In this document: positions 1,055 through 36,275 of the stretch, one piece after another
Layout of the letters: every line of letters begins with the position of its first letter
Numbering within the stretch: position 1 is the stretch's first letter
Assembly (NCBI GenBank): GCA_024636255.1
Contig: JAGXHK010000161.1
Coordinates: 1 to 54,283, forward strand
Direction of reading: 5' to 3'
DNA length: 54,283 bases
DNA from: Desulfuromonadales bacterium
GTDB lineage: Bacteria > Desulfobacterota > Desulfuromonadia > Desulfuromonadales > Geoalkalibacteraceae
Notes under the pieces: generated by a model
The model's input: the letters and a program-made list of their open reading frames with translations, nothing else
The model's database searches: none
Told to the model about the DNA's origin: nothing
Translations under genes and position numbers: made by a program

Positions 1055-2389
1055 ATGGAAAGATTCCCCAAGGTTATCTTCTGTCTCGTTCTGTTCCTCT
1101 GCCTCGCCATGGTCCCGGCAGCTTCTTCTGCCGATCAAGGGGCCGATGCGGGCTCCGGGGTTTTTCGCGTGGTACAGGTAGCTGGCGCGATCAACCCTGT
1201 TGTCGCTCGCTTTATCGCCGGCGAGTTGGCCCTGGCCAACCGTGAAGACGCCCGCGCATTTTTACTGGAACTCGATACCCCGGGCGGGCTCGACACCGCC
1301 ATGCGCGAAATCATTCAACAGATATTCGGCTCAGAAATCCCTGTCATCGTCTATGTCTACCCGCAAGGCGCGCGCGCCGCTTCGGCAGGAGCGTTGATCA
1401 CGCTGGCCGCCGATTTCGCCGCCATGGCTCCCGGAACCAATATCGGCGCCGCGCATCCCGTTGCCGTCGGTGGGGGGCAGGCGGATGAGACCATGATGGA
1501 GAAGGTCGTGAGCGATGCGGTGGCGTATGTGCGCAGCATTGCTGAGCAGCGCGGACGCAACAAGGATTGGGCTGAGCGCATCGTGCGCGAAAGCATCTCC
1601 ACCCCGGCGCACGAGGCGCTCGATCTTGGGGTGATTGATCTTGTCGTGGCCAGCGAGGCGGAACTGCTCGCCGAACTCGACGGTCGGCGCTATCTGCGCG
1701 GGGGCGAGCCCCGCATTTTGCGAACCGACGGGGTTGTGCTCGAGCGCGCCGAGATGAACTGGCGCCAGCAGATCCTGAACACAATCAGCAATCCGAATGT
1801 GGCGTACCTGCTGCTGATGCTCGGATTTCTCGGGATTTTCTTCGAGATTTCCCAACCCGGCGCGATCTTTCCCGGCGCGGTGGGTGCGGTGGCTTTGCTG
1901 CTGGCTTTCTTTGCACTTCAGACCCTGCCTATCAATTATGTCGGCGTGCTGCTGATTCTGCTCGCTGTCATCCTCTTCATCCTCGAGATTAAAGTTCCCT
2001 CTTACGGCATGCTGACAATTGGGGGAATCCTGTCCATGGCTCTTGGTTCCCTGATGCTCATCGACACCTCGGAGCCGTATATGCAGATATCACGTGCCGT
2101 CATCCTCGCCACGGTCGCCGTAAGCGCCGGGTTCTTTATCCTGATCGTCTTTTTTGTCGCCAGGGATCAGGGCCGGCGCATGGTTTCGGGCCGTGAGGGG
2201 ATAGCTGGAGAAACAGGTCAGGCGGTTACGGATATCGATGCCGAGGGCGGACGCGTCTTCGTGCATGGTGAATACTGGGATGCCTTTTCCCGGACACGGA
2301 TCGCTTCCGGAGAAAAAATCGAGGTCTTACGCATGCTGTCGGGGTTGCGCCTTGAGGTCAGGGCTGTCCAGGGCGAAGAAAAGGCTTAA
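1055..2389 (+). CDS. NfeD-family membrane-bound ClpP-class serine protease
   Basis: 444 aa with a signal peptide, a ClpP-like protease domain, a central block of TM helices and a C-terminal NfeD-type soluble domain. It directly precedes an SPFH gene, the classical NfeD/stomatin pair. Confidence 0.8.
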
Positions 2390-3692: not shown

Positions 3693-6600
3693 ATGGCAGT
3701 AAAAAAATTTAAAAAGGTCATGGCCGCAAACCGCGGTGAAATTGCTATCCGGATTTTTCGCGCCTGTACTGAACTCGGGATCAGCACCCTGGCCATCTAT
3801 TCGGAAGAAGATAAGATTTCCCTGCATCGCTATAAGGCCGATGAAGCTTATCTGATCGGCAAGGGCAAGGGGCCGATCGACGCCTATCTGGCCATCGACG
3901 AAATCATCGACCTGGCCCGCAAGAAAGATGTCGATGCCATTCACCCGGGCTATGGGTTTCTTTCTGAAAATGCCGAGTTCGCCGAAGCATGCGAGAGAGC
4001 TGGAATCGCATTTATCGGGCCCACGCCGGATATCCAGCGGCGGCTCGGCGATAAGGTGTCCGCGCGTCAGGTCGCAATCGAGGCCGGCGTGCCGATCGTG
4101 CCGGGGACGGAGAAACCGATAACCGCCGAAGAAGAGGCCTTGCTTTTCGCCAAGGAAGCCGGCTACCCGATCATCGTCAAGGCCGCTGCCGGCGGAGGAG
4201 CGCGCGGCATGCGCGTGGCGCGCAATCAGCGCGAGTTGCTCGAAGGGCTCAAGTCGGCGGCCTCTGAGGCCAACGCTGCGTTCGGCAATCCTTCAGTTTT
4301 TCTGGAGAAATATCTGGAGAAACCCAAGCATATCGAAGTGCAGATTCTTGGCGACCGGCACGGCAACATCTACCATTTCTTCGAGCGGGACTGCTCCATT
4401 CAGCGTCGTCACCAGAAAGTTATCGAAATGGCCCCGTCCTTGGGTCTGGAGGAGAAAACCCGTGTCGCCATCTGCGAGGCGGCGATGAAGATCGCCCGCG
4501 CCGTCGATTATATCAATGCCGGGACGGTCGAATTCCTGCTGGATCAGAACGGGGATTTTTACTTTATCGAGACCAATCCCCGCATTCAGGTTGAACATAC
4601 CGTGACCGAAATGGTGACCGCGCGCAATCTGGTGCAGATGCAGATCCGGGTGGCCGAAGGGTTCAAGATGTCCGACCCCGAGATCGGCATCACCGACCAG
4701 AGCGAAATCGAACTGCGCGGCTTCGCGATTCAGTGCCGGGTGACGACGGAAGATCCACAGAACAGCTTTGCGCCCGATTTCGGCACGATCAAGGTTTACC
4801 GGACCGCAGCCGGTTTCGGCGTGCGCCTCGATGCCGGTCAGGGCTATGCCGGCGCGAAGATTACGCCATTTTATGACTCGATGCTGACCAAGATTACCGC
4901 TTTCGGCCGATCATTTCCCGATGCCTCCCGCACGATGCACCGCGCGTTGCAGGAGTTTCGCATCCGCGGGGTGAAGACCAATATCGGGTTCCTTGAAAAC
5001 GTGATCACGCACCCGACGTTCGTGGCCGGCAAGTGCGACACCAATTTCATCGACAATCATCCGGAGCTTTTCCGGATTTCGGCCAAGCTCGATCGCGCCA
5101 GTAAAATGCTCAGCTACATCGGTCACGTTACAGTCAACGGTTATCCTGGCATCAAGCAGCCGCTGAAGACCCGGGAGCTGCGTGAACCTGACGTTCCCGA
5201 AATCCCTTATGGTACGGCAAGACCGAGGGGAAGCCGTGACATTCTGCGCGAGAAAGGCGCGGAGGGGCTTGCGCTGTGGGCCAAAAAGGAAAGAAAGCTG
5301 CTCATCACCGATACGACCATGCGCGATGCCCATCAATCGCTGATGGCGACGCGCTTTCGCACCCATGATCTTGACCGTATCGCCGAAGCGACCAGTTACC
5401 TTGGCGGCGGACTTTTTTCACTGGAGATGTGGGGCGGTGCCACCTTTGATGTGTCGATGCGCTTTTTGCGCGAAGACCCCTGGGAGCGCCTCGATCGCTT
5501 GCGTGCGAAGATTCCCAATATCCTTTTTCAGATGTTGCTGCGTGGTTCGAACGCCGTCGGTTATACGAATTATCCTGACAACGTGGTGCAGGAATTTGTC
5601 AAGAAAGCAGCGGGAAGCGGAATCGATGTTTTTCGCATTTTCGATTCATTGAACTGGACCAGGGGGATGGCGGTCGCCATGGACGCGGTGCGCGATAACG
5701 GAGCCATCTGCGAGGCCGCCATGTGCTATACGGGGGATATTCTCGATCCCAGGCGCGATAAATATCCGCTTCAGTATTACGTGAACCTGGCCAAAGAACT
5801 GGAGCAGATGGGGGCTCATATTCTCGGCATCAAGGACATGGCTGGACTTCTCAAACCCTTTGCCGCCGAAAAGCTGGTCAAGGCCCTGAAAAATGAAATC
5901 GGCATACCCATCCATCTCCATACGCATGACACCTCCAGCAACGGCGGGGCCATGCTGCTGGTCGCCGCCCAAGCCGGGGTGGATATCGTCGATACCGCCC
6001 TCTCTTCGGTATCCGGTCTGACTGCGCAGCCGAATCTGAACGCCCTGCTGGCAGCGCTCGACGGCACGATCTGGGATCCCAGGCTCGACGAAGCCGGCCT
6101 GCAGATGCTGGCCAATTACTGGGAGACGGTTCGTAATTATTATGCGCCATTTGAATCCGAGCTGCGCAGCGGCACTGCACAGGTCTACTATCACGAGATT
6201 CCCGGTGGCCAGTATTCGAATTATAAGCCTCAGGTGGAGGGTCTCGGTCTCGGTCACCGCTGGGAGGAGTGCAAGGAGATGTACCGCCAGGTCAACGATA
6301 TGTTCGGCGATGTAATCAAGGTGACGCCCTCCTCGAAGATCGTTGGCGACATGGCCATGTTCATGGTGCAGAACAATCTGCAGCCCGACGATGTCTACGA
6401 ACGTGGGCAGGATCTGACCTTTCCGCAGGGGGTGGTCGATTTCTTCAAGGGAATGATCGGCCAACCCTATGGCGGATTTCCGGAGAAATTGCAGAAGATC
6501 ATCCTTAAAGGCGAGGAGCCGCTCACATGCCGCCCCGGAGAATTGCTCGAGCCGGTCGATTTCGCAGCGAAGAAGGTGGAATTGGAGCAAAAACTCGAGC

Positions 6601-31327: not shown

Positions 31328-31879
31328 TTAGACGCCAAAGCGCTCGCGCCAGTTATCGAACACGGCTGCGTTGCCGGCTCCGTAGCGCAGCAGTTTGGCG
31401 CGAATTTCCTGTACAGGATTGCCTGTTTTTTGGCGCGGGTCCTTGCTGAAGAAGAGATCCGCATAGGTAACGACCTGCTCTTCAAGGCTCAGGGGGCGCA
31501 TGTCGCGTTCCGGCAGGGGCAGTTTCTGCTCCCGTATCTCGCGGATGCCGATGCCGACACCGATATGGCGTTCGCAGACCAGCGCATGGCGGGGCAGTCC
31601 CTCCGCCTCGAGAAGTTCCCTTCCCTTGAGCCCGTGGCATATGTAAGGCTGATTGCCATAGCAGCCTATGCCCGCAGCCCTGGTCTCGCCAATGCCGATG
31701 TCATGAAGCAGGGCGGCCTCCTGGACGAACGCGACATCGATAGCGATCCCGGTTTTCTGGAGACGCTCGGCAATGCGCATGGCCATCTGCGAAACCTTAA
31801 GGCTGTGGTCGAGCAAGATGGGATAGGCTGGTGAATCGGGCGGATAATATCGACGCAACAAGGCAAAGCAGTCAGTCAT
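31328..31879 (-). CDS. HD/HDIG-domain phosphohydrolase
   Basis: 183 aa with the HD doublet in AALLHDIGIG and further conserved His residues. Its start overlaps the upstream gene stop by 4 nt. Confidence 0.8.
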   Translation of the reverse strand: MTDCFALLRRYYPPDSPAYPILLDHSLKVSQMAMRIAERLQKTGIAIDVAFVQEAALLHDIGIGETRAAGIGCYGNQPYICHGLKGRELLEAEGLPRHALVCERHIGVGIGIREIREQKLPLPERDMRPLSLEEQVVTYADLFFSKDPRQKTGNPVQEIRAKLLRYGAGNAAVFDNWRERFGV

Positions 31880-32436
31880 GATTCTCCGGGCAGAACCGTG
31901 AAGGATTCCGCCATTTCCTCGAACAGGTCCAGGTAGCTGTCAAAGCGTTTCGGCAGGGCGGAAAATTCGAGAATAAAGCGACGACCCTCAGCCTGAACAG
32001 CAATGATCCAGTACGTCTTCAAGTCCGTTTTTCCGAACACCGAGCGCAGATCCTTGAAGGGCAGGTCAACCGACTTTTCAGCGGTAATCGTCAACTCATC
32101 CGGGATTTCCGGAAGGACTTTCAAGGACACATCGAGGTTTTCCGAGTGGGACGCGGGCGCGGCAAAAACGCGCATCGCAGCAATCGATATCTGCTTTTCG
32201 GTACGTGGCGATTGCCAGCCGACCCAGGTTTCCGGTGCACGATCACCTGTGATGCGTTGCCAGTTGCCCGGGTATTCGATGGCAAACCCGCGAGGCACAT
32301 CGACATACATCTTTTGCTGGATCGTCTCGCCGTCTTCGTCCGGGGAGGGCGAAGAGCAACCCATAGCGCAGAGAATTAAAATACAGGCGATCCCCCTGAA
32401 AAGAGATATCCGGAAGTTCTCTGCTGTGCAATTCAT
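31876..32436 (-). CDS. lipoprotein, function unknown (PsbP/DcrB-like fold suspected)
   Basis: ORF to 32532. ATG 32436 follows GGGAGAG and gives a signal peptide with lipobox LCAMGC. Confidence 0.65.
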   Translation of the reverse strand: MNCTAENFRISLFRGIACILILCAMGCSSPSPDEDGETIQQKMYVDVPRGFAIEYPGNWQRITGDRAPETWVGWQSPRTEKQISIAAMRVFAAPASHSENLDVSLKVLPEIPDELTITAEKSVDLPFKDLRSVFGKTDLKTYWIIAVQAEGRRFILEFSALPKRFDSYLDLFEEMAESFTVLPGES

Positions 32437-32541
32437 AAAGCTCTCCCGAGCGAAAAGAAAGAATATCGGATTTTCATATTGTAACAAACGTAGCGTAGAT
32501 CCACGAATATCCAAGCGGGATAAATTTTTCAATTTTCTGGA

Positions 32542-32569
32542 TTGACAAAAAAGAGGATCAGGATATATT
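32542..32569 (+). promoter_or_regulatory. orphan sigma70-type promoter
   Basis: TTGACA 32542-32547, a 16-bp spacer, then TATATT 32564-32569. It points away from both neighbouring minus-strand genes. Confidence 0.55.
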
Positions 32570-32575
32570 TATAAC

Positions 32576-32683
32576 CAAGAAGGTCAGCAAAGCAGAGAGT
32601 GACCGACAAGCCAAGCACATGCAGACCACCACCTCCTAGCTCCTCCTTTTGACCCGGTGACCTCCAATCACCGGGTTTTTTTT
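32576..32683 (+). ncRNA. candidate ~108-nt sRNA with anti-Shine-Dalgarno motifs
   Basis: Predicted TSS about 7 nt after the -10. 5' hairpin GGTCA/TGACC 32582-32604. C/U-rich stretch CACCTCCTAGCTCCTCCTTTT 32630-32650. Terminator stem CCCGGTGA/TCACCGGG 32653-32675 with a CCTCCAA loop, then T8 at 32676-32683. Confidence 0.45.
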
Positions 32684-32739
32684 GTCTTGGGGCCAAGAAT
32701 GCCCCATCCTCCTTAAAGAGAGCACGTTCTGTTTAAGAA

Positions 32740-33927
32740 TCACGTCGCCGGAAAGCTTTTCTCCAAGCGCCAGAAAATAAAAACCAAGGGCGCCAGCACA
32801 AGAACCAAGGTCGCGCCGAGGATCTGGAAAGTGGCGAAAAGGCCGGCATTATCCGCCAAGGCACCGATCAGGGGGCCAGTGCAGACGAAAACCAGCCGAA
32901 AGACGAACGATTTCAACGACAGGATGCTGGCCCGGTTGCCCGAGCGACTGTGTTTCTGGATATGGCTTTTCAGCAGCGGCCCCTGGAGCCCGCGCATGGC
33001 GGTGAGCAGGTAGTAGAAAAGAAAGCTCCAGAGCCCCCCGGCCAGCCCGAGCCCAAGATATCCGGCAAGGACCAGCACCAAAAACAAAATCACCATGCCT
33101 CGATCCCCGAAGACGAAATGAACGCGGTGGCTGAGCATCGAAAAAAGCGCGACAGCCGCATTGGCACCGGCCCAGATCGGTCCGAACCAGGTCAGGGGCA
33201 CATTGTTCTGCTGCATGTAGGGCTGAATCAGCCATACCGGATAAAAGGAAGACAGGCCCAGTACCGTTGCGAGAAAAATGACCAGACACAGCCGGCGATT
33301 CTCGATAAACACATAGCGAATTGTGCCCCAGGCCTCGAAAAGGTGCGAGGTGGCCTGAATATGGCTGACCCGCGGGACCTCTTTAAGTGAGCGGGAGACA
33401 AAAAGTGCCAGGGCCCAGACTCCGATCTGCAGCAGGAACGGCAGCAGCGGATACCAGGCATAGAACAGGCCGGCGAAAAGGGCTCCGATCGCTTCGCCGG
33501 TCTGCGCCCAGCCGACCATGCGTCCGTCGTAGCGTGCATAGCTCTCCTCGCGTCCCTGCTGGTGCAGCGTCTCGTAAAGAAGGGCGCTGTCCGAACCGCT
33601 GACGAAGGCAAAGGATATCCCCAGAAGAATCTCGGCAAGCAGCACCTCGCCGAATGAGTCCGCCACCGTGTACCAGCCCCAGCCCAACAGGCCGAGAACA
33701 GAAGCCAGATTCAGCGAGAACCGGTAGCCGAGCCGGTCGCTGAGATACCCCGACGGATATTCCATGGCCAGGGTCGCCAGCGAGAATATTCCCTGCAGCA
33801 GCAGGATTTCGGCCAGCGAGAGCCCGATATGGTCCTTCCAGTAAAGCGTGATGATCGCCATGGGAAACAGCGTCATCTTCAGGAAGGAGAAGGCGTAGAG
33901 CCAGCGGATGTTGCTTGCGTAATTCAA
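32740..33927 (-). CDS. MFS transporter
   Basis: 395 aa with about 12 TM helices. TTG start assumed and no clear SD, so the start is uncertain. Confidence 0.8.
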   Translation of the reverse strand: MNYASNIRWLYAFSFLKMTLFPMAIITLYWKDHIGLSLAEILLLQGIFSLATLAMEYPSGYLSDRLGYRFSLNLASVLGLLGWGWYTVADSFGEVLLAEILLGISFAFVSGSDSALLYETLHQQGREESYARYDGRMVGWAQTGEAIGALFAGLFYAWYPLLPFLLQIGVWALALFVSRSLKEVPRVSHIQATSHLFEAWGTIRYVFIENRRLCLVIFLATVLGLSSFYPVWLIQPYMQQNNVPLTWFGPIWAGANAAVALFSMLSHRVHFVFGDRGMVILFLVLVLAGYLGLGLAGGLWSFLFYYLLTAMRGLQGPLLKSHIQKHSRSGNRASILSLKSFVFRLVFVCTGPLIGALADNAGLFATFQILGATLVLVLAPLVFIFWRLEKSFPAT

Positions 33928-34264: not shown

Positions 34265-34294
34265 TTGCCTTGGCCCCCTCTTGCGCGCTATGAT
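34265..34294 (+). promoter_or_regulatory. possible sigma70 promoter of minor-pilin module 1
   Basis: TTGCCT 34265-34270, an 18-bp spacer, then TATGAT 34289-34294. Confidence 0.3.
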
Positions 34295-34342
34295 GCCGAT
34301 TTTGCAGACTTCGTTTGTGCATTCTTCATCGGTAAAAAAGCC

Positions 34343-34756
34343 ATGACTCGAAATACATCGACAATGCTGGACCGTCGCGGTTTTACCCTGCTCGAATTGC
34401 TGATTGCCGTGACGATTTTCGCCATTGGCCTGCTGAGCGTCGCGGGCATGCAGATCACGGCGATCCGGGCCAACTCAACGGCGGATACCCTGACGGTTGC
34501 AACAGCGGTTGCCCAGGGTGTATTCGAAGACCTGATGTCGCGCGATCCGCATGACAGCCTCTTTGATTCCACTGTGACCAGCAAGTCGTATCCACTCGAC
34601 AGCGACGCGATGAGTCAGGTGACAGGCGGCTCCAACTACCGGGCGACTTTCGATGTGAATGTGGATAAACCGGCCGACGGGCTGGTCCGTATTGAGGTGA
34701 GCGTCGTCGGCAACAACCGTGAAGTCTCGCTTTGCGGCTTTAAAAGGGTTTTGTAA
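34343..34756 (+). CDS. pilV: type IV minor pilin, PilV-like (module 1)
   Basis: ORF 34265-34756. ATG 34343 gives a prepilin leader ending RRG|FTLLELLIAVTIFAIGLL, with Glu at +5. Confidence 0.8.
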   Translation: MTRNTSTMLDRRGFTLLELLIAVTIFAIGLLSVAGMQITAIRANSTADTLTVATAVAQGVFEDLMSRDPHDSLFDSTVTSKSYPLDSDAMSQVTGGSNYRATFDVNVDKPADGLVRIEVSVVGNNREVSLCGFKRVL

Positions 34757-35763
34757 TGCCGGGATGCAAGATGCTTCGCGCCCGATGCGGCTTCACCCTG
34801 GTTGAGCTGCTGATTGTGGTCGCCTTGCTCGGCGTCGTCATGACGGCCGTCCTGAGTCTGGTCCGCACGACCCAGCGGCATGTCTACACCTCGGACGAGG
34901 TGGTCGAGGTCCAGCAGAATCTGCGGGTGGCTCTTGACTTTATGAGCCGGGATCTGCGCCTCGCGGGATTCGGCATTGCGGATGATGCGGCCATGATCAG
35001 TGCGCCGGCGCAACTGGCCTGCGCCGATAATAATTCAGACGGAGACTGTCTGGATGCCGGCGAAGCACAGTTTTTCAGCTTCCGAACTCTATGCGCCACG
35101 GGACAGATCGCGCGCATGGGCGGGTCTTCAGAGATTATCACGGTTTTCGACCCGGCCAGCGACCAGTCCATACCCCTGGCCTCCAGTGACATGGCACGGC
35201 TCTTCGCAGTGGGTCATTCCCTGCGTATTTTCCGGCCAGCGAGCCGGGTCCAGCCACTGGAGAGAGTTTTTCGTGTCACCGGCGCCGACGATGCCTCTCC
35301 GTCGGTGACGCTCAGAGGGTTCAACGCGCCAACGGTGCTGCGTCCCGGAGACCTGCTGCTGCGGGTCCTCGATGCGAATCTCGACGGCGACAACGACCCC
35401 AACACAAATCCGCCGGCGCACCCCAATACCGTTTCGTATCGCCTGGTCAAGAGCGACAGCGAGGACGCGGCGCAGTTCTACCTGGCGAGAATCCCCACCG
35501 GAGTCGATCCGAACGACGAAGATGCTTTCGAGATCCTCGCGACAAAGATTGTCGGCGTGCAGTTCGGGTATCTTCTCCAGGACGGCAGCGAAACATCGAC
35601 GCCAGGAGCCAGCGATCTCGATGAGATCAGGGCGGTGCGCATCACTCTGGTCGGGGCCAGCGATGCAACCCGGACCGGGAGCGCCAACTATCTCGGCCCC
35701 GGGCAGGCCGACAATGTGAAGACCCGCAGCATGACCACGATCGTCCACCTGCGCAACCGGTGA
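34756..35763 (+). CDS. pilW: type IV minor pilin, PilW-like (module 1)
   Basis: TAATG overlap with pilV. Prepilin signal ..RCG|FTLVELLIVVALLGVVM. About 330 aa, the size class of PilW. Confidence 0.75.
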   Translation: MPGCKMLRARCGFTLVELLIVVALLGVVMTAVLSLVRTTQRHVYTSDEVVEVQQNLRVALDFMSRDLRLAGFGIADDAAMISAPAQLACADNNSDGDCLDAGEAQFFSFRTLCATGQIARMGGSSEIITVFDPASDQSIPLASSDMARLFAVGHSLRIFRPASRVQPLERVFRVTGADDASPSVTLRGFNAPTVLRPGDLLLRVLDANLDGDNDPNTNPPAHPNTVSYRLVKSDSEDAAQFYLARIPTGVDPNDEDAFEILATKIVGVQFGYLLQDGSETSTPGASDLDEIRAVRITLVGASDATRTGSANYLGPGQADNVKTRSMTTIVHLRNR

Positions 35764-35786
35764 CGAGAGGCAGATCTGGAGCAGCC

Positions 35787-36275
35787 ATGTCTCGAAAATC
35801 ATCCTGCTTGAATAACGACCGGGGAACGGCTCTGGTCCTGGTTTTAACCATGCTCGCTGTGTTGATGGTTCTGTGTGTTCTCGCGCTCGAAAATTCAACC
35901 CTCGAGGTGAAGATTTCGGGCAATTACCGCGCCTCCCAGGAATCGCTGTACGCCGCGGAACGCGCAGGGCAGTATGCCCTGGACAACCTTGCCGACGGCT
36001 TGGATCTCAACGCCGATAAAGCCCCCGGCGGCGAACGTTACTACAAAGACGATATCCGGATCGGGAAAGGCGCCCTCGATCTCACCGAAGCGAATGGCGT
36101 CACCCGAATCGGCAGCGGCCCTCCACCGGCGGGCTCGGGGATGGATGCCACAACCGCAAGCGGTTTCCAGGCCATCTATTATGCGGTCGAGGTCCACGGG
36201 CAGTATCCGGAAGGGGCGCCGAATCCGTCGCGCAGCGGAGTTGAAATGCAGGTCGGTCGGATTGTTGCCAAGTAA
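35787..36275 (+). CDS. pilX: PilX-like minor pilin/assembly protein (module 1)
   Basis: ORF 35760-36275. ATG 35787 follows GGAG. PilX_N-type hydrophobic N-terminus (GTALVLVLTMLAVLMVL) without a cleavable G|F site. Confidence 0.7.
   Translation: MSRKSSCLNNDRGTALVLVLTMLAVLMVLCVLALENSTLEVKISGNYRASQESLYAAERAGQYALDNLADGLDLNADKAPGGERYYKDDIRIGKGALDLTEANGVTRIGSGPPPAGSGMDATTASGFQAIYYAVEVHGQYPEGAPNPSRSGVEMQVGRIVAK

What the first reader, a model, noticed from the sequence alone, without database searches (positions are those of the whole stretch)
32542..32683. Orphan promoter-terminator unit: candidate sRNA with three anti-Shine-Dalgarno CCUCC motifs, antisense to a 20-codon hydrophobic ORF
Both neighbouring genes are on the minus strand, yet the spacer carries plus-strand signals:
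- A near-consensus promoter (TTGACA, 16-bp spacer, TATATT; 32542-32569).
- About 75-80 nt after the predicted start, a textbook intrinsic terminator (8-bp GC-rich stem 32653-32675 plus T8).
- No plus-strand ORF with an RBS in between.

The predicted ~108-nt RNA has a 5' hairpin and a single-stranded stretch CACCUCCUAGCUCCUCCUUUU (32630-32650). Its first 8 nt equal the anti-SD tail of 16S rRNA (CACCUCCU). A third CCUCC sits in the terminator loop. This is the design of sRNAs that mask ribosome-binding sites.

On the opposite strand the same stretch reads as tandem SDs (AAGGAGGAGCUAGGAGGUGG) 9-11 nt before ATG 32620. That ATG opens MCLACRSLSALLTFLVINIS* (32558-32620). A type I toxin/antitoxin-like pair, with an Ibs/Sib-style fully antisense arrangement, is therefore an alternative reading. 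The ORF is short enough to be a chance ORF.
Basis: partly seen in the sequence, partly recalled or inferred. Interest (0 to 1): 0.65.

Follow-up and report, generated by a model that had tools for sequence, protein, structure and literature searches.

The report
Orphan promoter-terminator unit, candidate small RNA
A strong promoter and a strong terminator about 110 bases apart, with no usable gene between them, probably make a small non-coding RNA in an uncultured Desulfuromonas-like bacterium; no relative carries anything like it, so it is an ordinary, unconfirmed sRNA candidate and may be what is left of a lost mini-gene.

Summary
The sequence features are real. TTGACA-16-TATATT (32542-32569, +) is one of only two 11/12 promoter matches in the 54-kb window. 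The hairpin 32651-32677 plus T8 is one of about six strong terminators, and the only one not lying 24-35 nt behind a co-directional ORF. No plus-strand ORF has an RBS. A discrete RNA of about 105-108 nt is therefore the best reading.

Its function is unproven:
- No Rfam family reaches threshold. LhrC, ncS16 and the toxic sRNA RF02278 score 19-25 bits.
- No homologue turned up in a metagenome pattern scan or in 13 syntenic loci.
- The nearest relative is only 74% identical in the neighbouring MFS protein, so conservation cannot be tested fairly.
- Two of the three CCUCC motifs are predicted to be half-paired with a purine-rich 5' arm. Only the terminator-loop copy is free.
- Target prediction does no better than shuffled seeds.

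In relatives, the same slot between the MFS and PsbP-like genes holds other opposite-strand units: a conserved 34-aa zinc-ribbon mini-gene, and ArgZ-like and transglutaminase-like genes. The unit may be a decayed or replaced version of one of these.

The type I toxin-antitoxin reading is weak because no minus-strand promoter is found. Interest is low to moderate.

The parts
32520..32541 (+). A/T-rich stretch directly upstream of the -35 hexamer (UP-element-like)
   Evidence: Read from the sequence. GC is 0.375 over 32400-32599. A role as a UP element is inference.
32542..32569 (+). Sigma-70-type promoter: TTGACA, 16-bp spacer, TATATT
   Evidence: 11/12 match. Only two sites in the 54-kb window reach 11/12.
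32577..32683 (+). Predicted non-coding RNA of about 105-108 nt (start inferred 7-8 nt after the -10, end in the U-run)
   Evidence: Follows from promoter and terminator positions. No Rfam family reaches gathering score. No RBS-preceded + ORF: the three frames give QEGQQSRE*...KHMQTTTS* and (V)TDKPSTCRPPPPSSSF*.
32577..32604 (+). Purine-rich 5' arm (AAGAAGG...GCAGAGAG), including a weak 5-bp hairpin at 32582-32604
   Evidence: It pairs with the CU-rich stretch in the MFE and ensemble structures. The hairpin alone folds at -4.3 kcal/mol.
32630..32650 (+). CU-rich stretch CACCUCCUAGCUCCUCCUUUU with two CCUCC motifs (anti-SD-like)
   Evidence: Unpaired probability is 0.28 and 0.44.
32651..32683 (+). 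Intrinsic terminator: 10-bp stem, 7-nt loop CCUCCAA holding the third CCUCC, and a T8 run
   Evidence: Folds at -16.2 kcal/mol, with loop unpaired probability 1.0. It is the only strong terminator in the window without a co-directional ORF upstream.
32558..32632 (-). 20-aa (ATG 32620) or 24-aa (GTG 32632) hydrophobic mini-ORF behind two GGAGG motifs; probably a chance ORF
   Evidence: Translated. No minus-strand promoter-like site lies in 32437-32800. No Pfam hit.
32529..32696 (-). 55-aa ORF (TTG start); rejected as a gene
   Evidence: GC3 is 0.41 against 0.62-0.75 in the neighbouring genes. No Pfam hit. Only two low-complexity hits among 1.84 billion representatives.
32740..33927 (-). MFS transporter gene, convergent with the unit
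   Evidence: Pfam MFS_1, 5.5e-18. Homologues are Desulfuromonadales-like.
31876..32436 (-). PsbP-like lipoprotein gene, divergent from the unit. Its likely own extended -10 (TGTTACAAT) lies at 32478-32486 on the minus strand.
   Evidence: Pfam PsbP, 1.9e-5. Syntenic homologues in L004, L059, L058, L061 and L065. The promoter reading comes from the sequence and is inference.

Best explanation
This is a self-contained plus-strand transcription unit that makes a small non-coding RNA of about 105-108 nt.

How it would be made. A strong sigma-70-type promoter (perfect -35, 16-bp spacer, TATATT, A/T-rich upstream) would start transcription near 32576-32577. A strong intrinsic terminator would end it in the U-run at 32680-32683. 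There is no usable ORF in between.

Where it sits. The unit occupies a variable slot between the convergent MFS gene and the divergent PsbP-like lipoprotein gene. Relatives carry other opposite-strand units there, so it is lineage-specific. It may be the decayed or replaced counterpart of those units.

How it would act, if it acts. By base pairing:
- In trans, through its CCUCC (anti-SD-like) motifs with Shine-Dalgarno regions. The terminator-loop copy is exposed. The other two would have to be released from a weak purine-rich 5' arm.
- In cis, by perfect complementarity, with any MFS read-through transcript. The MFS gene has no terminator of its own.

Shown: the signals, their rarity, the absence of coding potential, and the synteny. 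Inferred: transcription, RNA ends, and any regulatory activity.
For: - The promoter is an 11/12 match, one of two in the window.
- The terminator is one of about six strong ones and the only orphan. All the others follow a co-directional ORF by 24-35 nt.
- There is no RBS-preceded + ORF.
- The minus-strand ORFs look non-coding: GC3 0.41, no family, no homologues.
- The only CCTCC cluster in the window falls inside this unit, and the loop copy is fully unpaired.
- Sub-threshold Rfam look-alikes are all CU-rich, terminator-bearing sRNAs: LhrC 24.5 bits, ncS16 21.5, toxic sRNA RF02278 19.5. This design is experimentally established for LhrC, which has CU-rich sites in a loop, a linker and the terminator loop (PMC4132741), and for the cuckoo/CcsR family (PMC4615179).
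- No strong intrinsic terminator lies on the minus strand between the MFS and PsbP-like genes; the only hit there is a weak 5-bp site at 32505-32489. The RNA would therefore be antisense to read-through transcripts.
- In relatives the same slot carries opposite-strand units with a promoter next to the PsbP-like gene and a terminator next to MFS. A promoter and terminator in these positions and this orientation are thus the norm for this locus.
Against: - There is no expression data.
- No homologue was found anywhere. The 26 metagenome hits to CACCTCCTNNCTCCTCCTTTT share nothing beyond the pattern. Nothing turned up in 13 loci of relatives by blastn or nhmmer. There is no second copy in the window.
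- The fold is not better than shuffles (z -1.73).
- Two of the three CCUCC motifs are predicted to be largely paired.
- Duplex energies with translation-initiation regions of 39 window ORFs (best -34.5, median -21.6) fall inside the range for shuffled seeds (best -29 to -38, median -18 to -22).
- The CCUCC motifs lie in a pyrimidine tract, where they are expected by composition alone.
Confidence: 0.4

Rival explanations
1. Non-functional relic. The promoter and terminator are the surviving expression signals of an opposite-strand gene that once filled this slot: the 34-aa zinc-ribbon mini-gene, or the ArgZ-like or transglutaminase-like gene seen in relatives. A short RNA may still be made but has no role. 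The terminator may persist only because it stops antisense transcription into the MFS gene.
For: - The syntenic slot is occupied on that strand in 6 of 9 relatives with conserved flanks. L059 and L005 carry the transglutaminase-like gene, L004 the ArgZ-like gene, L057 the mini-ORF plus ArgZ-like plus transglutaminase-like genes, and L065 the mini-ORF alone.
- L065 has the same gene order as the window. Its unit is short (about 260 nt), with TTGACA-16-TGcCAGAAT and a hairpin whose stem base, GACCCGG/CCGGGTC, is identical to the window's.
- L057 has CCCUCCUCUUUUCC directly before its terminator, much like the window's CUCCUCCUUUU.
- Loose-gap alignment of the window unit to the L057 unit gives z about 4.2.
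- The region upstream of the window's -35 resembles the region upstream of the transglutaminase-like gene in L005 (p = 0.012).
Against: - An nhmmer profile of the two mini-gene units does not hit the spacer at all.
- tblastn finds no remnant of the mini-protein or of the ArgZ-like or transglutaminase-like proteins in the spacer.
- Unrelated terminator regions reach z = 3 under the same loose-gap scoring, and each half of the unit alone gives p of about 0.09.
- The L065-based and L057-based alignments contradict each other on which part is deleted.
- The p = 0.012 result is uncorrected for six tests.
- Both signals are near-consensus rather than decayed.
Confidence: 0.3
2. Cis-antisense regulator or insulator only. 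The RNA, or the act of transcribing it, acts on minus-strand MFS-to-PsbP-like read-through mRNA by duplex formation and cleavage or by transcriptional interference. The CCUCC motifs are incidental.
For: - No strong intrinsic terminator lies on the minus strand after the MFS gene. The hairpin is followed by CAAAAGG on that strand, and the only other site is a weak 5-bp one at 32505-32489.
- The RNA is fully complementary to the intercistronic region.
- The PsbP-like gene seems to have its own extended -10 downstream of the unit (inference).
Against: There is no evidence that read-through occurs. The arrangement is not conserved: L058 has a 59-bp spacer and L061 has REP-like hairpins instead.
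Confidence: 0.1
3. Type I toxin-antitoxin pair (Ibs/Sib-like). The minus-strand 20-24-aa hydrophobic peptide is the toxin and the plus-strand RNA is its antitoxin.
For: - The ORF is hydrophobic (GRAVY about 1.7, my calculation from the sequence).
- It is preceded by two GGAGG motifs, 9-11 nt from the GTG and ATG starts.
- The plus-strand RNA would cover the SD and 15 of the 20 codons.
Against: - No minus-strand promoter-like site lies upstream.
- No other copy exists in the window or in relatives.
- The hydrophobic stretch after Arg6 is only 14 residues.
- A CU-rich strand yields hydrophobic codons by composition alone.
- Pfam gives nothing.
Confidence: 0.07
4. Chance co-occurrence of promoter-like and terminator-like sequence in an A/T-rich spacer, with no discrete transcript.
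For: - The spacer is A/T-rich (GC 0.375-0.45), which favours promoter-like hexamers.
- A 21/22 match to the promoter spacer occurs inside an unrelated ORF at 2137-2158, which shows that such strings can recur by chance.
- The CCTCC cluster alone is not significant window-wide.
Against: - An 11/12 match is rare: two in 108 kb of strand, against shuffles averaging about 0.9 sites at the looser 9/12 level in 2.2 kb.
- A 10-bp stem with T8 is not a chance object.
- The joint probability is about 0.01-0.02 (my estimate).
Confidence: 0.08

Closest known systems
LhrC sRNAs of Listeria monocytogenes (Rfam RF00616)
   Same: Both are about 110 nt and have redundant CU-rich sites, including one in the linker just before the terminator followed by UUUU and one in the terminator loop. 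In LhrC these sites bind the SD region of target mRNAs (PMC4132741). The Rfam model aligns the linker, terminator stem and loop motif of the candidate.
   Different: The score is 24.5 bits against a gathering score of 110. LhrC uses UCCC rather than CCUCC, carries a loop-A site that is absent here, is multicopy in Listeria (single here), and comes from an unrelated phylum.
Cuckoo / CcsR (RSs0680) / NfeR1-type sRNAs and the Betaproteobacteria toxic sRNA (RF02278)
   Same: Anti-SD-like CCUCC-containing motifs are repeated within one short terminator-bearing RNA. The proposed mechanism is occlusion of ribosome-binding sites (PMC4615179).
   Different: That family is defined by CCUCCUCCC in the loops of 2-4 adjacent hairpins. 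Here the full motif is absent and only one of three CCUCC lies in a loop. RF02278 scores 19.5 bits against 50. The family is alpha/beta-proteobacterial, not Desulfuromonadales.
Ibs/Sib type I toxin-antitoxin loci of E. coli (from my own knowledge of Fozo et al. 2008)
   Same: A roughly 20-aa hydrophobic ORF is overlapped over its RBS and most of its codons by an antisense RNA of about 110 nt that has its own promoter and terminator.
   Different: No toxin promoter is found, there are no repeated copies, the peptide is less uniformly hydrophobic, and there is no conservation.
34-aa zinc-ribbon mini-gene unit in the same slot of relatives (L065, L057)
   Same: It lies in the same slot and on the same strand. 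In L065 it has the same TTGACA-16 promoter type and the same hairpin stem base, GACCCGG/CCGGGTC. In L057 a CU-rich stretch precedes the terminator.
   Different: The window has no CxxC...CxxC ORF and no start codon with an SD. The nhmmer profile does not detect the spacer.

Membership tests
LhrC (RF00616) | Covariance-model score at or above the Rfam gathering score (110 bits) | tested here: not met
   24.5 bits, E = 0.15; nothing at gathering threshold.
LhrC (RF00616) | Three CU-rich sites: loop A, the single-stranded linker and the terminator loop | tested here: inconclusive
   Linker-like and terminator-loop sites are present. There is no loop-A site, and the linker sites are predicted to be 56-72% paired.
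Cuckoo / CcsR / toxic sRNA (RF02278) | CCUCCUCCC motif in the loops of 2-4 adjacent hairpins (PMC4615179) | tested here: not met
   The sequence has CACCUCCU, CUCCUCCUU and ACCUCCAA. There is no CCUCCUCCC, and only one motif lies in a loop. RF02278 scores 19.5 bits against 50.
Generic trans-acting base-pairing sRNA gene | Own promoter and Rho-independent terminator in an intergenic region, with no coding potential | tested here: met
Generic trans-acting base-pairing sRNA gene | Sequence or structure conservation in related genomes | tested here: not met
   No homologue in the 26 pattern hits or in 13 syntenic or related loci. Caveat: the nearest relative is 74% identical in the MFS protein, too distant for most sRNAs.
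Generic trans-acting base-pairing sRNA gene | Detected transcript and validated target | not testable with these tools
   No expression data are available. In-window target prediction is no better than shuffled seeds.
Type I toxin-antitoxin (Ibs/Sib-like) | Small hydrophobic ORF with an RBS, overlapped by an antisense RNA | tested here: met
   20/24-aa ORF at 32558-32632 (-) with GGAGG 9-11 nt upstream. The plus-strand RNA covers the SD and 15 codons.
Type I toxin-antitoxin (Ibs/Sib-like) | Separate promoter for the toxin mRNA | tested here: not met
   No minus-strand promoter-like site at 9/12 or better in 31500-33700. Manual reading of 32685-32800 finds none.
Type I toxin-antitoxin (Ibs/Sib-like) | Repeated copies or conservation of the peptide | tested here: not met
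   No second copy in the window or in relatives' loci. The rest of the genome is not available.
Zinc-ribbon mini-gene unit (L065/L057) | 34-aa ORF with CxxC-x12-CxxC | tested here: not met
   tblastn finds it in L065 and L057 only (E = 2e-15 for L057) and not in the window. The three plus-strand frames hold a single Cys (and reading).
Zinc-ribbon mini-gene unit (L065/L057) | Same slot, strand and signal layout | tested here: met
Zinc-ribbon mini-gene unit (L065/L057) | Detectable DNA homology | tested here: inconclusive
   The nhmmer profile gives no hit. Loose-gap alignment to L057 gives z = 4.2, but unrelated terminators reach z = 3 and each half alone gives p = 0.09.

The most novel reading that the evidence does not exclude
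The unit is a young sRNA born from a decayed mini-gene. On this reading, the promoter, the CU-rich 3' UTR element and the terminator of a 34-aa zinc-ribbon protein gene survived loss of the ORF. They now produce an anti-SD-type riboregulator in a Desulfuromonadales lineage. This would be a caught-in-the-act case of sRNA origin from a protein-coding unit, in a phylum where no anti-SD sRNA family is described in Rfam.
Probability: 0.12. Interest if true: 0.55.

Novelty: new member of a known kind. Interest (0 to 1): 0.3.

Why it matters
If the RNA is expressed and active, it would extend the design of redundant CU-rich, anti-SD motifs plus a terminator-loop seed. That design is known from Listeria LhrC and from the alpha/beta-proteobacterial cuckoo/CcsR RNAs. 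The extension would be to Desulfuromonadales-like bacteria, for which Rfam holds no such family.

The locus would also be a concrete example of how a slot that holds different small genes in different relatives can end up as a non-coding unit. As it stands it is a single, unconserved candidate in an uncultured organism. Its practical value is as an annotation note and as a test case for metatranscriptome mapping.

Tried and rejected
1. Rfam, at gathering threshold on the whole window and at E-value threshold on 32400-32800. Only sub-threshold look-alikes appeared.
2. Exact look-up of the window's MFS and HD proteins in public assemblies. Neither is on record.
3. Genome-collection scan with the MFS protein. 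It returned three loci at 61-68% identity, with synteny broken downstream and no similar unit.
4. Viral-contig calibration of a loose pattern (25 chance hits), followed by a metagenome scan with CACCTCCTNNCTCCTCCTTTT. It gave 26 hits, none with a terminator or flank similarity.
5. Ten contigs of MFS homologues at 68-74% identity. No homologous spacer was found by blastn-short or nhmmer.
6. tblastn of the slot proteins of relatives (transglutaminase-like, ArgZ-like, 87-aa, 40-aa and the zinc-ribbon mini-protein) against the window. There is no remnant in the spacer.
7. Plasmid and phage BLAST of the spacer. The only hit is a 39-nt terminator look-alike behind a small membrane-protein gene on Rhizobium plasmids, which is chance.
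8. The 55-aa minus-strand ORF as a small protein. Rejected: GC3 0.41, no Pfam hit, and only two low-complexity hits in 1.84 billion representatives.
9. Target prediction against 39 window ORF starts. It was indistinguishable from shuffled seeds.
10. Homology of the unit to the L065/L057 mini-gene. It is suggestive under loose-gap scoring but fails the nhmmer and negative-control checks.
11. A 17-codon plus-strand ORF (GTG 32599...RPPPPSSSF*) ending at the foot of the terminator, considered as a leader peptide. Rejected: it has no SD within 5-12 nt and there is no downstream plus-strand gene.
12. A bidirectional terminator for the MFS gene. Rejected: on the minus strand the hairpin is followed by CAAAAGG, not a U-run.

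Full report
**The observation**

The plus strand of the 303-bp spacer (32437-32739) between two minus-strand genes carries TTGACA, a 16-bp spacer and TATATT at 32542-32569 (11/12 match). An A/T-rich stretch lies just upstream. Eighty-one bases after the -10 there is a hairpin at 32651-32677: a 10-bp stem with an 8-bp G+C-rich core, a 7-nt loop CCUCCAA, and eight T's at 32676-32683. It folds at -16.2 kcal/mol.

Scans of the whole window found one other 11/12 promoter match (13749 +) and five other strong terminators (7170, 16436, 20225, 23214, 26258). Each of those five lies 24-35 nt behind the stop codon of a co-directional long ORF. The terminator at 32651 is the only orphan. The only plus-strand ORF upstream (32003-32545) is the shadow of the PsbP-like gene on the other strand, which has a Pfam hit and syntenic homologues. 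My rough estimate for one of two such promoters lying within 150 nt upstream of one of about six such terminators on the same strand is 0.01-0.02. So the unit is more than chance would give.

**The CCUCC motifs**

CCTCC occurs at 32632, 32642 and 32661, and again at 32708 just beyond the terminator. It is the only 3-in-40-nt cluster on either strand of the window. However, 35% of dinucleotide shuffles of the window contain at least one such cluster, and 9% contain 4 in 90 nt. The cluster is therefore notable only because it coincides with the orphan unit. It also sits in a pyrimidine tract, where the motif is expected by composition.

Thermodynamic folding does not support a free 'single-stranded stretch'. 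The CU-rich segment pairs with the purine-rich 5' arm (AAGAAGG...GCAGAGAG). Unpaired probabilities are 0.28 and 0.44 for the first two motifs and 1.0 for the loop motif. The 5' domain is weak, and the whole RNA is not significantly more stable than shuffles (z -1.73).

**Coding potential**

No plus-strand frame between promoter and terminator has a start codon with an SD at a workable distance. On the minus strand the 20-aa ORF exists and is extendable to 24 aa, with GGAGG 9-11 nt upstream. No promoter-like site lies on that strand anywhere in 31500-33700. The 55-aa minus-strand ORF (32529-32696) has GC3 of 0.41 against 0.62-0.75 in the neighbouring genes. It has no Pfam match and only two low-complexity hits among 1.84 billion representative proteins. 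I treat both minus-strand ORFs as non-genes, the short one with less certainty.

**Known families**

No Rfam family reaches its gathering score in the window. At relaxed thresholds the region attracts LhrC (24.5 bits against 110), ncS16 (21.5 against 48), anti-hemB (20.2 against 49.5) and the Betaproteobacteria toxic sRNA (19.5 against 50). These matches rest on the CU-rich linker plus the terminator. They are resemblances of design, not membership.

The design itself is well documented. LhrC uses three CU-rich sites, in a loop, in the linker and in the terminator loop, to bind SD regions (PMC4132741). The cuckoo/CcsR family carries CCUCCUCCC in 2-4 hairpin loops (PMC4615179).

**Relatives**

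The neighbouring MFS protein places the contig among Desulfuromonadales-like bacteria such as Desulfuromonas versatilis, Trichloromonas and Geoalkalibacter. The best homologue among 5.8 billion clusters is only 74% identical, and the window's own protein occurs on one contig only. No close relative is available, so absence of conservation is weak evidence.

With that caveat, nothing similar was found:
- Three genome loci at 61-68% identity.
- Ten further contigs, searched by blastn-short and nhmmer.
- 26 metagenome matches to CACCTCCTNNCTCCTCCTTTT, none of which shares flanks or a terminator.
- Plasmid and phage collections, where the only hit is a chance terminator look-alike in Rhizobium.

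**Synteny, the new information**

The flanks are conserved: sigma-54 regulator and kinase, then Fer4 and MFS on one side, and PsbP-like, HD and VTT/PAP2 on the other. The slot between MFS and PsbP-like varies, and it is usually filled by units on the strand opposite to MFS, which is the window's plus strand:
- A transglutaminase-like gene in D. versatilis (L059) and in L005.
- An ArgZ-like gene in L004.
- Both of these genes in L057.

Each has a promoter region next to PsbP-like and an intrinsic terminator next to the MFS stop. L058 has only 59 bp there, and L061 has REP-like GGGAGAGGG hairpins.

L065 has exactly the window's gene order and a 357-bp spacer. On the opposite strand this spacer contains TTGACA-16-(TG)CAGAAT (10/12). 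After it comes an SD followed 7 nt later by an ORF reading (L)AAWSCTKCGFEKEGRCKPRKCLTCKKAVSFVKK*. Then comes a hairpin whose stem base, GACCCGG/CCGGGTC, is the same as the window's.

The same 34-aa zinc-ribbon ORF, this time with an ATG start, lies at the head of the opposite-strand genes in L057 (tblastn E = 2e-15). It is followed by CCCUCCUCUUUUCC and a terminator. The two copies differ by 11 synonymous codon changes with all Cys conserved, so it is a real, uncalled mini-gene.

**Is the window's unit a decayed copy of that mini-gene?**

The position, strand, promoter type and hairpin base fit. So does a CU-rich stretch in front of the terminator in L057. A loose-gap alignment to the L057 unit scores 4.2 sd above shuffles.

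Against this:
- Unrelated terminator regions reach 3 sd under the same scoring.
- Each half of the unit alone gives p of about 0.09.
- The L065-based and L057-based alignments disagree about which part is missing.
- An nhmmer profile of the two mini-gene units does not hit the spacer at all.
- tblastn finds no remnant of any slot protein.
- A similarity between the region upstream of the window's -35 and the region upstream of the transglutaminase-like gene in L005 has p = 0.012 before correction for six tests.

Shared ancestry of the unit is therefore plausible but unproven.

**Mechanism**

I commit to the following. The unit is transcribed into a non-coding RNA of about 105-108 nt (confidence about 0.6 that a discrete RNA exists).

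If it regulates anything, it does so by base pairing in one of two ways. In trans, it would pair through the exposed loop CCUCC and the two partly sequestered CCUCC with SD regions, as LhrC and the cuckoo RNAs do. In cis, it would pair with MFS read-through transcripts, since no strong minus-strand terminator separates MFS from PsbP-like.

The UUUU before the hairpin and the 3' U-tail fit the usual Hfq-binding module of such RNAs. That point rests on my knowledge and was not tested. In-window target prediction gives no support, since shuffled seeds score equally well.

Overall confidence in a functional base-pairing sRNA is about 0.4, including the cis mode partly covered by a rival. The main rival, at 0.3, is that the unit is a functionless leftover of the slot's former gene. 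The terminator would then be retained because it shields the MFS gene from antisense transcription. The type I toxin-antitoxin reading (0.07) fails on the missing toxin promoter and the missing extra copies. Pure chance is unlikely (0.08).

**Novelty and verdict**

The kind of element, an intergenic promoter-terminator sRNA candidate with anti-SD-like motifs, is well known. This would be a new, unrelated member in a lineage without described examples. There is no expression or conservation evidence, so interest is low to moderate (0.3). The most novel reading still open is birth of an anti-SD sRNA from a decayed zinc-ribbon mini-gene, with probability about 0.12.

Noticed in passing
L057 7058-7159 (-) and L065 4791-4895 (-): A conserved 34-aa zinc-ribbon mini-ORF (CxxC-x12-CxxC; MAVWNCEKCGFEKEGRCKPKKCPSCAESGSFVKK*) that the gene callers missed. 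The two copies are 68% identical and differ by 11 synonymous codon changes. The L065 copy appears to start at CTG, 7 nt after AAGGAGG. It lies in the slot between MFS and PsbP-like, on the strand opposite to MFS.
   Followed up: partly
L004, L005, L057-L061, L065 versus window 32437-32739: The slot between the MFS gene and the PsbP-like/HD/VTT-PAP2 genes is a hot spot of gene turnover. Its content differs between relatives: a transglutaminase-like gene, an ArgZ-like gene, an 87-aa gene, the mini-ORF, REP-like hairpins, or almost nothing.
   Followed up: yes
L061 3650-3745: REP-like hairpins built from CCCTCTCCC/GGGAGAGGG and CCCCTCC/GGAGGGG fill the equivalent spacer.
   Followed up: no
L001 5230-5500: A long intergenic region downstream of the MFS homologue with extended inverted repeats (gcgattgcgttaaagccc...gggacactagcaatcgcctaaagccc). 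It may be a structured or mobile element.
   Followed up: no
window 2137-2158 (-) and 32544-32565 (+): A 21/22 identity (GACAAAAAAGA[C/G]GATCAGGATA) between the promoter spacer and a site inside the ORF 1055-2389. Blastn-short E = 2e-4; probably chance.
   Followed up: partly
window 32544-32552 and 32678-32686: A perfect 9-nt inverted repeat, GACAAAAAA / TTTTTTGTC, brackets the whole unit. One arm overlaps the -35 hexamer and the other overlaps the terminator T-run. It does not extend further.
   Followed up: partly
window 32507-32540; L005 about 5403-5443 (-); L059 5480-5525 (-): A motif TATCC(A/G)AGCG followed by an A/T-rich stretch, upstream of the opposite-strand promoter, resembles the region upstream of the transglutaminase-like gene in relatives (p = 0.012 uncorrected). 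It may be a shared operator.
   Followed up: partly
window 32478-32486 (-): TGTTACAAT, an extended -10-like element about 40 nt upstream of the PsbP-like start codon. D. versatilis has a similar string (ATGTTTACCTAT) at the equivalent place. This is likely the PsbP-like gene's own promoter.
   Followed up: no
window 34265-36275 (+): A run of genes with N-terminal methylation (type IV pilin-like) motifs, probably a pseudopilin cluster (Pfam N_methyl on 34265-34756).
   Followed up: no
window 32708-32714 (+), i.e. AAGGAGG on the minus strand 26 nt after the MFS stop: A fourth SD-like GGAGG on the minus strand, immediately followed by ATG (32707) and 11 nt before the TTG start of the rejected 55-aa ORF. 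Its purpose is unexplained.
   Followed up: partly
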